Assembly: GCF_002571385.2 (NCBI RefSeq)
Contig: NW_019217785.1
Span: 1,724,163-1,788,162, forward strand
Origin: Stylophora pistillata
Lineage: Eukaryota
DNA: 64,000 nt
Direction: 5' to 3'
Shown here: positions 2,440 to 12,000 of the stretch, one piece after another
How the letters are laid out: each line of letters starts with the position of its first letter
Numbering within the stretch: position 1 is the first letter of the stretch
Position numbers and translations under genes: made by a program
Notes under the pieces: model-generated
Databases searched by the model: none
Seen by the model: only the letters and a program-made list of their open reading frames with translations
Told to the model about the DNA's origin: nothing

Positions 2440-2855
2440 CAGTACTAAACCTCTCGCGAGCAAGCATGAATACCTACGTACAAGCGTACTAACTACAACT
2501 CTCGAACGAGCAGGAATACCTACGTACTAGCGTACTTACTACACCTCTCGAGCGAGCAAGCATGAATACCTACGTACTAGCGTACTAACTACAACTCTCG
2601 AACGAGCAGGAATACCTACGTACTAGTGTACTAGTGTACTAACTACAGCTCTTGAGCAAGCATAAATACCTACGTACTAGCGTACTAACTAAACCTCTCA
2701 AGCGAGCAGGAATACCTACGTACTAGCGTACTAGCGTACTAAGTAAACCTCTCCAGCAAGCATGAATACCTACGTACTAGCGTACTAACTAAACCTCTCG
2801 AGCGAGCAGGAATACCTACGTACTAGCGTACTAGCGTACTAAGTAAACCTCTCGA
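2440..2855. repeat. Minisatellite, 8 units of about 46-54 bp with core AATACCTACGTACTAGCGTACT
   Basis: Cores at about 2468, 2515, 2565, 2611, 2664, 2711, 2765 and 2811. Units alternate between GCATG(A)- and GCAGG-leading types. Confidence 0.9.
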
Positions 2856-3091
2856 GGGACGTCACATTACCCGCTAGAGCCATTCCTGTTTAAACTCGGT
2901 CGTGGGGCAAGATGGCGGCCGATTTTCTGTATTTTGACTGGGCACAGAAAATTGAAGATTTGAGCAAATAAAAATTTTTTTGCACAGAAATACTCCAAAA
3001 AATATGCTTATTTTGTTAAGCAAAAAAAATTTGGGGGTTTAGGTGCACTTTAAAAGACAGTGCCTTACTATCAGAGCTCATTTTTTTTCAG

Positions 3092-6000
3092 ATTATGTTG
3101 CAGTCCAAGAGAGACCAACTTTTGTATACTTAGAAGTATCTGATGATCTCTCCTTTCTTGTTTGTGCTGATGGTAACAGCAATATTTTTGTGGTAAACCT
3201 TGATGAACATTTTAAAGAGTTCCCTTCTCAGCAGATTGGTCCAACCCACTCTAGGATCAAAGGTCCTTCTTTTTCATGCGTAAAGTTTCAGTATGAATTA
3301 GGAGATGAAGATTCTGTGGCCCGTAATGCAGAAATGTCTGATATTGCCTATGGGGACAGGGTGTGGAAAACAGAGATATTGGCTTTCAGGAAGGGTGCAA
3401 AGCAAGCCTGCTGTGAAAAGGGTACAGGTGGGAGTCAGCTATGAATGTGGTTTTTATTAAATTAAAATGTGAAACATGATCATTTGAATTTTGCATGAAC
3501 CTGAAAAAAATCAGACATTGTGCATGATGTGTGAAAGGTGAAGTGGGACAGAGGGGCAGGAGCCTGGGAGAACAGGGGGCGGGAGAGGGAGGGAAGCGGG
3601 AGAACAGAGGGCAGGAAACAGTATCTACATGAGGGTGGGAAGCAGGAGCAGAAATAAATAAGGTGATAGTTTGTTGTTTATTACTGGGTATTATTCAGTC
3701 AAAGACACTTATCTAGTAAAGTTTTGAAAATTCCATTTAACATCCACCAATGCCTAAAAGAAAATTTTGGAGGTAAGAAAACGTAAATTTGTACTCGGGC
3801 TGGAAAAACAGCATTACTTCTGGTGAATTTGGAAATCCCTTCAATTTGGTTTTATCATTGATCATGAGATGGCATGACATGTACAGTGTCTGGTAAGCTA
3901 TAGCTGTCAAAAATCTCCAGCAAAGAAAGCAATTCAGGGTCATTCAGGTCAAATGTCATCAAAGACTTTATCAATCAGCTTCAGAATTTTTTGTTGTGGC
4001 CATGAAAAAATCTGTTCATGGAAGACCTTGGGAGCTTGCTCTGTACAACGGCACAATCCCAAAAAAAAGATTCTCCTGGTTAACCTGAAGACAGGAGCAA
4101 CACAATGAAGGGCGGGAGTTGGGAGGCAAAGGGGCATAAAAGTACCAGATGCAGGAGAACATGGCGTGGGAAGTGGCAGACTCTGACCCCCTGTCCCCCC
4201 TCTCCTGAAAAGGCCAAATATTTCTACTTGACTTAGCTTTACAAAGGGTATAGGGGACCCTCTTATAAGGTAATGTTAACTAAATCCAAAGCAGAAACAT
4301 CATGTAAACTTAGTGGTGGTGGCTGTGACAGTTATAGCTTTCTTTCTCAGATTCCTCTATACCTATGACATCTGATATCTGACATTTTGTTTGCTTCTTT
4401 TCCTAGATGTAAGCCATTTTTGTAAGCCAACAGTGAAGAAAAGGTGGTTTTCTGATCTAGTTGGTCCTGATGTTGGAAATCTGTTGGTTGCATTGAGTAG
4501 TTGTGGTAAACAAACCGCAAAAAGCTGTAGCAACATGAGTGGATTTAAAGGAGAAAAGGGGGAGGCTGAAGAGACTCAACCTGAAGTATTGCCATCCCAT
4601 GAGATTTTACAGAAAACCATTTTTGTTAAATGTGAAGACTGGATGAAAATGTACAAGTTGGAGGGAATATGGGCGACTCCAGCTTCATTCTTACTCTGTT
4701 TCAAACCAGAGAGACTAATGGAAAATCCAAGTGATGTTCCCCATGGTGTTCTGTGTTTGTTTTCTTTGAAAACTCAAAAATATCTCTACCACTGGTAAGC
4801 TATTTAACTTTTTTTAATAACAGAGTCTATATAGTTTAAGTTTCTAAAGTTTGTATACTTTGTTATTAGTTGCTAAAGCATGGTAAAAAGTGTAGTCATA
4901 ATTTTATTGTGTCTATTAGGAAAGGTTAAGTGAGGTGTTATCGTCTTACCAGGGTTCTTCTTTCAAAAGACAACTTTGAAGTTGAACAACCCATAAAAGA
5001 TAATACTTTAGGCACACCTATTTTCTCGGTTCTTTCCCTCCATCTATGAGGTGCTGCAAAAATAATTTACTCTTAATTTTGAGGTTGTGACAACAGACAA
5101 ACAAGAAATGTACTGGTTTAATTCCAAACTTCTTTAATTTGCAGGTGTTTGGAACCTTCAGTGATAGTACAAAGTTGTGAACCAGCATTTCCAAATCTGG
5201 TGCTCACAAGCACATCCCTGGCAGTACCAGCTTTTGATATTAGTCAAGATCAGCTTGTCCATAAAGTAATGAATGTGTTTCAATCATCAGCTGAATAATT
5301 AGTTATCTTTCTTCTTGTTTTAGCCAGGAGAATTATCTTGTTTAAAGAAAGAATGCTAAGAGGATGTGTCAAAGCNNNNNNNNNNNNNNNNNNNNNNNNN
5401 NNNNNNNNNNNNNNNNNNATATATATATATATATATATATATAACTAACTGCAGACAGTACTGTTTCGGCCTTCTGGGCCTCATCAGTGCAGTGCTAATG
5501 CTAGGATGGGGGAGAACCGAGACGGTCACCCCAAACGACCCAACCTTTGTGGTATCGTCTAAGCCATGCCAGAGTGCTCAAACTAGAGTAAACCAGTTTA
5601 TAACTATGTATATAACATTTTATATACAGTATAAAATGTTATATAACTATGCAATGAAAAATTCTTTTAACAGAGTTATAACTCTCTCATTTGGTGGCTA
5701 TTTTTGACTCCTTTTTAGGAATGGTCTTAGGTGGAAAATGTTGATGGAAACTTTGCTCTACTGTTTTGTAGGTAATTATGTACGAGAATGCAGTGCTGGC
5801 AGACTCTCTTTGCTTTGTGAATCAGTGGGATCATTGTACCATTCCAATTCATGCTTTAGAAGTGGCCTTAAAACTAAGGCAACTCGACACAGTTGCCTTT
5901 TTTTTAAAAAACCAGGACAAAGGCAAGAACCGAGCTCTAAAATGTCATGTTAGAATTTATAATACAGCAATTAATGTTAAATCTTTTAAACTTTTTGAGA

Positions 6001-9000: not shown

Positions 9001-12000
9001 TATCTAATTAGCTTCTTCCCTTTTAAAAGCAGATGATAATCATGGCAGTCATGAACTGGTACATGACTATATTTACTTCCAATTTAAACTATTTCTTTCA
9101 GGGGCGGGACATTTGGCAACAGCTTCATAAAGTTTGTTTGTACACACTTCACAGACCTCTTAGAGATTTTCTGGTGAGGCCTCTTTGAAATTAGCAGAAA
9201 CAGTTTCCAGGGAATCAATATATGTAATAAGAGTGAAACTGTAAAGCTGATCAGAACATGTCACTTTTATACAAGGTTCAATCAGCCTTTTGCTTGTAGT
9301 CCATCACTAGCTTGCCTATTTCTTTTTCCCATATTGAATGACCATGATTAATCTAGTTCCTTGGCTGTTCTGCTCATCCAGAGGATCTTGACTTGTGAAG
9401 TACAATGTAGGAAGAAAGTTGTTAAAATGACCAAATGCCTAGTGGTGTACTGAATTGTTACTACTTAGCCAAATGCAAAAGTATAGATAACAATTCACAG
9501 TTTGAGTCATTGAATTTGAATATATGAAAAATCATATGTGTTGCACAACTATTGCAATTAGCACCTCAACATTTGCACCTTCATTATTCGCATCCACCAA
9601 TCACAATACATGTAATTATCACATCAGCATCTGCATGGACACAATGCCTATATAAATCTGTGGGCAGGCTTTATTAAACATTCTACTTTGAGCACAAAAA
9701 GTAGCGGTCAACATATGTGTGCACTGCGGCATTACAAAATGTATATGAAAGTGATCCTTGTGGTAATGAACACTACTTACTATGAAGTAGTGAAAATAAG
9801 GACTGAAAAAAAAATTCAGGCTCATACAGGATTCGAACCCATGCCCTCTGCAATACCAGTGCAGTGCTCTACCAACTGAACTAACAAGACAATGAGGAGC
9901 TCCCAGTTGGCTTGGTCTAAGACTGAAGTTTGTGTCCTCCAAACTAACATTCTTGAATGAATGGAACATGGTTATAACAAAATGTTTCGCCATTTCATAA
10001 TTTTTCCATCGGTAGGTGAATGAGTTAGAATCAAGAGATTTCTTACCAGCTGAAGAAAGGAATGTAGTGAAGTTTTCTCAAACCTTGGAAATTTTGTACA
10101 GTCACCAATCCTTCACAGAGGCTAAGACAAATGTGAGAATTAATTACCCAAAAGACAGGTCTGTGACAAGATTGTAATCATTATATATGCTACATTTGAC
10201 TTAGGTTATTAGATAGTGATGTAAAGATAACTGAATCCATTGTAAATGCAAATAAACACAGGCAGGATTGTGGTGTTACTTAATTATTTTTTGTCATAAT
10301 ATTATACAAGTAGCTGTGCAGTTGATCACCACATGGATGTGTTGTAAGACAAATTAATCTGGTTGCGGTGCAGTTACAGTATGGTATTTTGTATCTTAGT
10401 TGGAGGGACCTTGGACTGTTAAAAAGTTCTTTTAATCTGGGTTCAGCTCAAATCCTTGAGACTTACATTCAGAGTGGAAATTTAACACCTGTGGACCTCA
10501 ACAAACAGGTAAAATCTTCACAGATTCATTTACACTGTATAGTAGTACATAACTCACTATACAGGTACATTAGAGGACAGTATACCAAGTTTGGGCACTG
10601 TACTTGGAATTAGATGTTCTGGGTCTTTATTTGCTGGAAACAAATAATTCTTTATGGTTATCTGCACTTTTGAAATGTGAATTCCTGTGGACATATTGTG
10701 GGCAAACTACTGCATACTTGGCCAAAACCTGACAAACTTGAGCCATACAAATTAGTTCAATCAAACTGCTTTTAAGCATTTTTATATAACAGGATGCTTT
10801 TTTCTCATTTTTACAGGCAAGTAGATAATGCGTTGTGAAAGTTCATGTGTAATATGTACTCATGTTTGTATTATGCTATGATTTCACAGAATCTCTTAAG
10901 TGGTAGTGGTTATGTTGAGGTACCTCTGGCTTGGGTTTGTTCTTGGGATATGGCATCAAGACAGAGAATTTTAGCAGAGAGGGTGTTCTCAAGTAAAGGT
11001 AAGGTACCGATTTACAGAGTTTGTGTTTTTACAAGTAAATGAATGAACAAACTAAGGTAAAATGAAGAAGAAACCAGAAAGAGAGTTCCCTTCCTAACAC
11101 AGGGCACTCTACATTTAGATATGATACACAAAATATGAATGATCTAGTTCATCAGGTTAGTATACTCAGATCAAACATGCCCCCATCATCAATCCATTAT
11201 ACACTTGGTACCTGAATCTTCACAAGTTTATGATGACCAAAGTGATGGAAAGTTTCTGAGTCATTTGAGGAGTGCAATCACATAGGTGCAACTCCATAAA
11301 CACTTTTGCCTGAGTCTCTTTTAAAACAGCAAGAGAATTTCCAGCTGCTCACAGCACACAAATGAAGAGAAATAAGATAGTTACTGTTAATTGTTTTAGT
11401 ACTGGCCATGTTTGTTTGAAGAGTGGATAATGCTATCTAATGGCCAGGATAAATCTCTATCTGGTGGATCCAGGGCAGAACTTTTTGTTAGCATTAATCT
11501 GCTGAATGGCAATTTATCCATTGGATAGAATAATCCACTCTTTGAACGACTGGGCCTAGATGGTTATGCTGGTTTGTTACTTAAAAATTACTTATTAGAA
11601 GCATTCTACTAGTACATTTACAAGTATTTACCAGTCTGTGAGGAGTGATTCATTATGATCAAAATGCTTGAACTTGACTGCTACTGTATTTAAAGTATTT
11701 TCAATAACAACCTATTTTTCAGCGGGAGATTATAGTTGTCCATGCCCCAATATTGGATTAAGTTCAGATGCACTTTGGGAGTACCTTTCCTCTCATATGG
11801 ATTGGCAGACTTTGTTGTCTTGGATTAGATCAGTTGCTCATGATAACAATCCACCTCAAGATGATCCCTCACTACCTGTGCGTGGGAAATTGTGTGTTGT
11901 TAATGACTGGAACATTATTTTCCCTTCACTGCCATGTGGCATCTTCAGTCAAGGAGATTTCTGTCACAAGGTTGTCAAAACAATGATTTTGGAAGAGATT

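What the first reader, a model, noticed from the sequence alone, without database searches (positions are those of the whole stretch)
5419..5610. Intact hammerhead ribozyme / retrozyme embedded in (TA)n, antisense in an SPG11 intron
A complete type I hammerhead (5448-5493, - strand) has every catalytic nucleotide, a 6-bp stem I, a 4-bp stem II and a palindromic stem III (CAGTACTG) that would favour dimeric cleavage. It sits in a ~170-nt non-coding unit that ends in a (TA)n run next to an assembly gap, which may hide tandem copies. This fits non-autonomous retrozymes that yield small circular RNAs, a class known from corals. Microsatellite targeting is an inference.
Basis: partly seen in the sequence, partly recalled or inferred. 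Interest (0 to 1): 0.7.

Follow-up and report, generated by a model that had tools for sequence, protein, structure and literature searches.

The report
Coral retrozyme copy with priming footprint
This is a shortened, backwards-facing copy of a 245-base coral repeat that carries a hammerhead (self-cutting RNA) motif and occurs hundreds of times in the genome; it belongs to a known class called retrozymes, and the fixed ends of its copies in TA repeats likely record where a Penelope-type reverse transcriptase starts copying it.

Summary
The hammerhead is real: type I, minus strand 5493-5448, full core, predicted cut 5454/5453, antisense in an intron of an SPG11 homologue. It is a 155-bp, 5'-truncated single copy of a 245-nt tandem family with at least 655 exact ribozyme ends in this coral genome: a non-LTR retrozyme, a class already described in Acropora. 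The gap probably hides no tandem copies: this end is the family's terminal form, and arrays extend the other way. Beyond the known class: TA-ending insertions stop 8-12 nt past the cut site, and most ends (183, versus 46 and 2) carry a GTTA duplication absent from internal junctions; 3 carry it twice; a sister family has it in 0 of 21 ends. Short pieces starting at the cut site lie inside (TA)n (25 hits, control 0). Neptune-type Penelope ends lie just upstream in the same orientation (11 versus 1). Best reading: a Penelope enzyme nicks (TA)n and primes internally on the retrozyme RNA, often slipping four bases. Cleavage and circles were not shown; RNA reads were few and on both strands. The scan noted Penelope-linked, TA-targeting retrozymes before on other DNA.

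The parts
5442..5596 (-). 5'-truncated retrozyme copy: unit positions 103-245 plus the 12-nt terminal segment
   Evidence: 143 of 143 bases identical to the 245-nt unit of tandem arrays
5448..5493 (-). Type I hammerhead motif; predicted cut between 5454 and 5453
   Evidence: Sequence; Rfam HH9 25.7 bits, below cut-off; 98% of stem cells paired and one compensatory pair across two families
5442..5453 (-). Terminal segment with GTTA duplication (TGCA GTTA GTTA), found at insertion ends only
   Evidence: 183 exact copies versus internal form 423
5419..5443 (.). (TA)n run, likely the target that primed insertion
   Evidence: family-wide junction counts
5597..5649 (.). AT-rich 5'-junction DNA: perfect 16-bp inverted repeat (5609-5624 / 5630-5645) and TATATAACTA repeated at 5438, 5597 and 5640; left arm possibly made during insertion
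   Evidence: contigs of other individuals branch at 5621-5623; origin inferred
5266..5771 (+). Intron of the SPG11 (spatacsin) homologue that holds the copy, antisense
   Evidence: GT..AG ends with in-frame join; downstream exon matches PDB 8yad_B; exon reads on both sides

Best explanation
This is a 5'-truncated, solitary genomic copy of a 245-nt hammerhead-bearing tandem repeat family (a coral non-LTR retrozyme) that was likely inserted into a (TA)n run by the endonuclease and reverse transcriptase of a Neptune-type Penelope element. Shown: the family, its arrays, its fixed 3' end on (TA)n, variable 5' truncation and its junctions with Penelope ends. Inferred: arrays are transcribed, the ribozyme cuts out 245-nt monomers that are ligated into circles (known for Acropora retrozymes, not shown here); the Penelope GIY-YIG nicks (TA)n; the nicked end pairs with RNA positions +7 to +14 after the cut site (7 of 8 pairs) and primes internally; after about three bases the primer usually slips back four (6 of 7 pairs), writing GTTA twice; synthesis then runs through the ribozyme and round the unit, giving truncated monomers such as this one or arrays; on cut linear RNA it runs off at the cut site and leaves 8-12-nt stubs. 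This copy faces antisense to SPG11, so its ribozyme would not be in the pre-mRNA.
For: Family and arrays with 244-245 spacing; 112 of 154 sampled insertions hold one ribozyme, 42 hold two or more. Terminal forms 183 duplicated: 46 plain: 2 matching the internal junction: 3 triplicated. Duplicated and plain ends occur in all three subfamilies A, B, C. Sister family (254 nt, same first 9 nt, one TA fewer) has 16 plain, 5 other and 0 duplicated ends of 21, as expected if slippage needs the extra pairs (6 versus 4). Pattern (TA)n+TGCAGTTA: 25 hits versus 0 control; 16 plain stubs, 5 duplicated stubs, 2 whole units starting at the cut site, 2 other. 5' TA 73 of 133 versus 2.9% background. Penelope 3' region within 60 nt upstream in the same orientation 13, downstream tail-to-tail 2; 11 versus 1 after dropping loci fetched through the endonuclease search, p 0.006; five joins have 0-5 nt between the two (L029, L112, L116, L157, L177). 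[quoted passage not shown] Substitutions at ribozyme positions 206-227 about 0.008 per site versus 0.032 in positions 100-205. Penelope RT initiates inside its RNA at fixed sites in vitro (PMC11167929, parts 1-2 read).
Against: No direct sign of cleavage or circles: 621 and 507 of 12.9 million and 224 of 9.7 million RNA reads, on both strands, 69-72% running into flanking DNA, no pile-up of ends at the cut site. In the Anolis Penelope the ribozyme was not needed for insertion, uncut RNA was the main substrate, and the start site had no homology to the target (PMC11167929). The retrozyme shows no sequence match to the two Penelope ends used, so it is not a simple derivative of them, and no intact full-length partner was found (longest unbroken frame 455 aa). 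The upstream/downstream count used a library of only two Penelope families and three other repeats; recurring downstream flanks (L015/L018, L022/L030/L072) were not classified, and one upstream Penelope was inverted (L207). 3' ends were mostly fetched by patterns that require TATA, so the share ending on TA (131 of 145) is biased; 9 of 154 insertions end mid-unit at scattered places. Array lengths and A/B mosaics may be assembly artefacts. Stubs cannot be assigned to one family, several lie in the same locus, and their first T is ambiguous with the TA run.
Confidence: 0.72

Rival explanations
1. Same family and Penelope-type enzyme, but the template is an uncut linear transcript of a source array that already ends in GTTAGTTA(UA)n; the terminal form is inherited, plain ends arise by mis-priming or later loss of four bases, and no slippage or circle is needed.
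For: RNA reads with the terminal form running into TA are present (101, 85 and 35 loose ends); unprocessed RNA was the main substrate for the Anolis element (PMC11167929); each family could have its own source tail, which would also explain the sister family's plain ends.
Against: Needs separate duplicated-tail sources in subfamilies A, B and C while all their internal junctions keep the other form; copying a linear source can only shorten arrays; 3 triplicated ends and cut-site stubs need extra steps.
Confidence: 0.2
2. The family is moved by another reverse transcriptase (a LINE or a Naiad-type Penelope) and lies beside Neptune ends only because all share (TA)n targets.
For: (TA)n runs here collect several unrelated elements; Naiads prefer (TA)n (PMC8557442, passages); the unit matches the tested Penelope ends nowhere.
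Against: Orientation excess 11 versus 1 and direct joins without TA; no poly(A) tail; a fixed internal start is a Penelope trait (PMC11167929).
Confidence: 0.12
3. A satellite spread at DNA level (unequal crossover, extrachromosomal circles captured at fragile TA repeats), with the hammerhead as a passenger.
For: Arrays are near-identical; local amplification by unequal crossover is proposed in bioRxiv 10.64898/2026.07.22.740005.
Against: Fixed 3' end with variable 5' truncation, stubs starting at the RNA cut site, and lower divergence in the ribozyme point to an RNA intermediate.
Confidence: 0.05

Closest known systems
Cnidarian non-LTR retrozymes, Acropora millepora (Cervera and de la Pena 2020, PMC7229834; read: part 2 of 6 of the text and passages; supplement not readable)
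   Same: Canonical type I hammerhead in small tandem repeats; variants of about 225 and 245 bp, matching the 245-nt unit here; GC below 50% (here 49%); no LTR or coding frame.
   Different: The main text has no occurrence of 'microsatellite' or 'integration' and names LINEs or Penelope elements only as candidate movers. Fixed ends, GTTA duplication, stubs and Penelope joins are not in the parts read. Whether this is the same sequence family could not be checked, as the sequences are in the unread supplement.
Non-LTR retrozymes as non-autonomous Penelope derivatives (Li et al. 2026, bioRxiv 10.64898/2026.07.22.740005; read: parts 1-3 of 5 and passages)
   Same: Monomers, dimers and multimers; co-occurrence with Penelope elements including Neptune in coral.
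   Different: Its evidence is co-occurrence and pLTR homology in Xenopus; 'insertion site' occurs 0 times. Here the link comes from junctions, and no homology to the tested Penelope ends was found.
EN+ Penelope-like elements: Neptune/Nematis (Craig et al. 2021, PMC8557442, passages) and Poseidon PAc (Frangieh et al. 2024, PMC11167929, parts 1-2 of 4)
   Same: (TA)n bias linked to the CX2-5CxxC linker; 5' truncation; inverted 5' pieces; reverse transcription starting inside the RNA at fixed sites downstream of the hammerhead.
   Different: This element encodes nothing, has a canonical rather than minimal hammerhead, starts 7-8 nt after the cut with partial pairing to the target, and shows one start with a 4-nt repeat instead of two starts 30-40 nt apart (no second fixed end).

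Membership tests
Type I hammerhead ribozyme | Core CUGANGA, GAAA, UH with three helices, open at stem I | tested here: met
   110 of 112 stem cells paired in 8 rows of two families (98.2%)
Type I hammerhead ribozyme | Match to an Rfam hammerhead model at curated score | tested here: not met
   None at gathering; HH9 25.7 versus 52 bits, E 4.2e-4
Type I hammerhead ribozyme | Covarying stems | tested here: inconclusive
   One compensatory pair (stem II, G-C to A-U, between families), two one-sided changes; 21 of 500 shuffles reach the score
Type I hammerhead ribozyme | Self-cleavage | not testable with these tools
   No read-end pile-up; cut-site stubs are indirect
Non-LTR retrozyme | 150-450-bp non-coding tandem unit with one type I hammerhead per unit | tested here: met
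   245-nt unit; arrays of 2-12 in the assembly
Non-LTR retrozyme | No LTRs, GC below 50%, dispersed multi-copy | tested here: met
   GC 0.49; at least 655 exact ribozyme ends on many contigs
Non-LTR retrozyme | Abundant linear and circular monomer RNA | tested here: inconclusive
   Few reads, both strands; 55, 73 and 24 reads span the unit join, which fits arrays or circles alike; libraries not shown to keep 245-nt non-polyadenylated RNA
Non-LTR retrozyme | Self-paired circular fold | tested here: inconclusive
   Circular fold -76.8 kcal/mol, z -2.1, 2 of 100 shuffles as low; the active hammerhead fold is not the predicted minimum
Non-autonomous Penelope-like element | Fixed 3' end, 5' truncation, (TA)n target bias | tested here: met
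Non-autonomous Penelope-like element | Sequence homology to the pLTR of an autonomous partner | tested here: inconclusive
   No match between the unit and the 3' regions of two Neptune-type families; other Penelope families in the genome were not compared
Neptune/Nematis clade (candidate partner) | RT, CX2-5CxxC linker, C-terminal GIY-YIG with CCHH | tested here: met
   no tree was built, so Neptune versus Nematis rests on PMC8557442 listing Neptune for A. millepora

The most novel reading that the evidence does not exclude
A Penelope reverse transcriptase, sister to telomerase, performs telomerase-like primer realignment on a retrozyme RNA in vivo: it primes from nicked (TA)n 7-8 nt after the hammerhead cut, slips back to add a GTTA repeat (once in 183 ends, twice in 3), then copies round the circle or jumps onto its own RNA. 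The insertion ends would then be a genomic record of in vivo cleavage, the priming register and the partner enzyme for animal retrozymes.
Probability: 0.35. Interest if true: 0.72.

Novelty: new member of a known kind. Interest (0 to 1): 0.42.

Why it matters
The element class is known and this copy is probably inert. What is open in the papers read is which enzyme moves animal retrozymes and how it primes on their RNA. This family is young (52 of the sampled duplicated-end copies covering position 150 onward differ from the unit at two places or fewer; the window insertion looks polymorphic) and its ends give exact predictions: priming at +7/+8, a 4-nt slip that depends on one extra UA, stubs ending at the cut site, and a named partner. 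These can be tested with the in vitro Penelope assay of PMC11167929.

Tried and rejected
Rfam at gathering score found only five tRNA-like hits. Hidden tandem copies in the gap: rejected as unlikely (terminal form). L065 first looked like an autonomous element ending in this ribozyme; alignment of the other Penelope 3' regions showed it is a chimera. Target-derived origin of the extra T: 13 of 40 TA-bearing 5' flanks start T|T for duplicated ends, 4 of 21 for plain ends, 62 of 267 in background, so not supported. A shared pool of tail RNAs jumping onto any circle: disfavoured, since the sister family has the same first 9 nt but 0 of 21 duplicated ends. Alternating 244/245 arrays as dimer circles: not used, may be assembly paths. 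A second fixed 3' end: none. RNA end pile-ups: none. The first pair count used a mis-registered structure and a misaligned third family; it was discarded and redone on 8 rows of two families. Summed contig depths were not used as copy number. Literature searches; none listed a paper on retrozyme insertion ends in (TA)n, but subscription journals and the PMC7229834 supplement were not seen. Earlier-finding look-ups by sequence and by relatives gave nothing.

Full report
Observation. The minus strand at 5493-5448 reads stem I ACTGCA, core CTGATGA, stem II GGCC-CAGAA-GGCC, GAAA, stem III within the palindrome ACAGTACTGT, C17, and TGCAGT. C17 is at 5454. It was the only motif in the window with this core and a 4-bp stem II directly after it in the first scan. 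Rfam has no hammerhead hit at gathering score; the best is HH9 at 25.7 bits, E 4.2e-4, cut-off 52. The exon at 5772-5936 matches spatacsin, and a GT..AG intron at 5266-5771 joins the exons in frame. In run X24 all exon reads have the first mate on the minus strand; neighbouring introns are seen spliced (3 reads each), but this one is not listed. Runs holding the stretch include coral metagenomes.

The family. A search of the own genome (398 Mb) gave 116 matches from 40 of 767 candidates scored, many in arrays with period 245. The unit is 245 nt, GC 0.49. The window copy is unit positions 103-245, 100% identical, plus 12 nt. I sampled 295 ribozyme sites in 154 insertions from loci L001-L120 and L156-L215: 112 single, 42 with two or more. 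Three subfamilies (A; B, 244 nt; older C) differ outside the ribozyme; substitutions are about 0.008 per site at positions 206-227, which my pattern did not constrain, against 0.032 at 100-205 (copies are related, so these are not independent events). A sister family of 254 nt shares the ribozyme, the first 9 nt after the cut and a few short motifs. Across 8 rows of both families 98.2% of stem cells pair, with one compensatory pair: weak covariation.

The ends. Inside arrays the sequence after the cut is TGCAGTTAGATATAGC (65 of 65). Genome-wide exact counts after GAAACAGTACTGTC: TGCAGTTAGATATA 423, of which 2 continue into TA; TGCAGTTAGTTATA 183; TGCAGTTATATA 46; and, with a shorter anchor, GTTA three times in 3. 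All reversed-pattern controls were 0. So most termini differ from the internal junction by a GTTA duplication. The window copy has this terminal form, and arrays extend on the other side; hidden tandem copies in the gap are therefore unlikely, and run X7 has a contig running 43 letters past 5375 at flank depth (letters not shown). Duplicated and plain ends occur in all subfamilies: A 52 and 5, B 10 and 8, C 3 and 3 among copies reaching position 150 (sample enriched for plain ends). The sister family has 16 plain, 5 other, 0 duplicated of 21. A (TA)n primer pairs with RNA +7 to +14 at 7 of 8 positions; after three added bases a 4-nt slip keeps 6 of 7 pairs in family 1 but 4 of 7 in family 2 (pair counts only, no hybrid energies). 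The extra T is not explained by the target. The pattern (TA)n+TGCAGTTA occurs 25 times against 0; 21 are 8-12-nt stubs inside TA and 2 are whole units starting at the cut site, with the caveats that some share a locus, some are fold-back centres and either family could be the source.

5' ends are scattered along the unit; 25 of 133 fall at +4 to +13, the ATATA motif. TATATA lies within 30 nt of 73 of 133 readable 5' junctions (21 of 154 were unreadable: N, locus edge or continuing unit) against 152 of 5277 background windows. TA on both sides of variably truncated copies fits a pre-existing target; no empty allele was read directly. For the window locus, run X5 holds the 5' junction at depth 52 against 87-103 in the flanks and its contigs branch at 5621, and X7 has a contig that leaves the window sequence at 5623 (only 24 of 1148 pieces shown). 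I infer a presence/absence polymorphism, with the left arm of the 16-bp hairpin made at insertion.

The likely mover. A GIY-YIG frame upstream of one copy led to an abundant family (153 matches, 150 of 2425 candidates scored) with RT, CxxC-x4-CxxC linker and C-terminal endonuclease, minimal hammerheads in the 3' region and ends on (TA)n: the Neptune/Nematis layout of PMC8557442. No intact full frame was found. Its 3' regions lie within 60 nt upstream of retrozyme 5' ends in the same orientation 13 times, inverted once, and tail-to-tail downstream twice; without loci fetched through the endonuclease search, 11 versus 1, p 0.006. This fits template jumps from retrozyme to Penelope RNA or polar insertion at Penelope ends; the small library limits the claim. 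The unit itself shows no match to these Penelope ends.

RNA. About 2, 2 and 6 in 100 of three raw runs were read: 621, 507 and 224 reads, mostly diverged copies, on both strands, about 70% running into flanks; 55, 73 and 24 span the unit join; no pile-up of ends. In X24 ribozyme-antisense depth exceeds sense (36-46 versus 18-28). This looks like read-through of embedded copies and neither shows nor excludes circles. In the monomer, stem III adds only 0.4 kcal/mol and a non-catalytic fold is 3.6 lower; the palindrome could pair between neighbours at -13.4. The Acropora retrozyme nonetheless cleaved as a monomer at about 0.8 per minute (PMC7229834).

Comparison. Membership in non-LTR retrozymes is met on all DNA-level features; cleavage and circles are untested. 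PMC7229834 describes coral units of about 225 and 245 bp and proposes target-primed copying of circles by LINE or Penelope enzymes; its supplement could not be read and may hold this sequence. The 2026 preprint ties retrozymes to Penelope pLTRs. PMC11167929 shows internal, fixed-site initiation by a Penelope RT, but without target homology and without need for cleavage, which supports the enzyme class and cuts against a required circle. PMC4209133 (part 1 of 4) gives the weak-helix-III dimer model. Searches listed nothing on retrozyme ends in (TA)n. That telomerase realigns its primer is established knowledge, recalled; that Penelope RTs are sister to telomerase is in PMC8557442. Earlier AI notes of this scan reached similar Penelope and TA readings on other DNA; they are not support.

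Verdict. A new or already catalogued member of a known class; this copy is probably inert. Confidence that it is a retrozyme copy about 0.95; that a Neptune-type enzyme inserted it by internal priming at (TA)n about 0.72; that the GTTA duplication is de novo slippage on a circle about 0.35. Interest 0.42.

Noticed in passing
window 43798 (-), 44791 (+), 62681 (-): Three near-identical minimal hammerhead motifs (stem I TGACT/AGTCA, core CTGATGA, GAAACGTC) of the Penelope terminal-repeat kind; two face each other about 1 kb apart.
   Followed up: no
window 55813 (+); L023:1780-1839, L234:1037-1096, L050, L074, L194, L223: A third type I hammerhead family (stem I TCTGT/ACAGA, stem III around CTC.GAG) with a variable stem II.
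   Followed up: partly
G000 C28:1247976-1249113, C199, C547, C589 (L216-L245): Sister retrozyme family of 254 nt, tandem, longer stem III, ends on (TA)n; chimeras with family 1 at L012 and L042.
   Followed up: yes
window 9818-9890, 22254-22326, 22588-22660, 63197-63269, 50689-50760: Five tRNA-like Rfam hits; the pair at 22254-22660 forms a large inverted structure of a repeat, not ordinary tRNA genes.
   Followed up: no
L123, L107, L052, L057, L079: A tRNA-bearing repeat also ends on (TA)n and is joined directly to Penelope and retrozyme pieces in the same orientation.
   Followed up: partly
window 15329-16088: 390-bp direct duplication with (TA)n in each copy and a 15-N run between; may be a false duplication across a gap.
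   Followed up: no
window 2453-2856; 23735-23930; 57284-57692: Tandem arrays of 46/54/100 bp, 40 bp and 13 bp.
   Followed up: no
L019/L199 (C236), L210 (C81), L180 (C190), L014: Retrozyme insertions with inverted arms, back-to-back or tail-to-tail across one TA run.
   Followed up: no
L139 and L142; L170 and L171; L084 and L086: Pairs of insertions on different contigs or places with the same 5' flank, suggesting segmental duplicates, haplotypes or carriage inside another repeat; not merged before counting.
   Followed up: no
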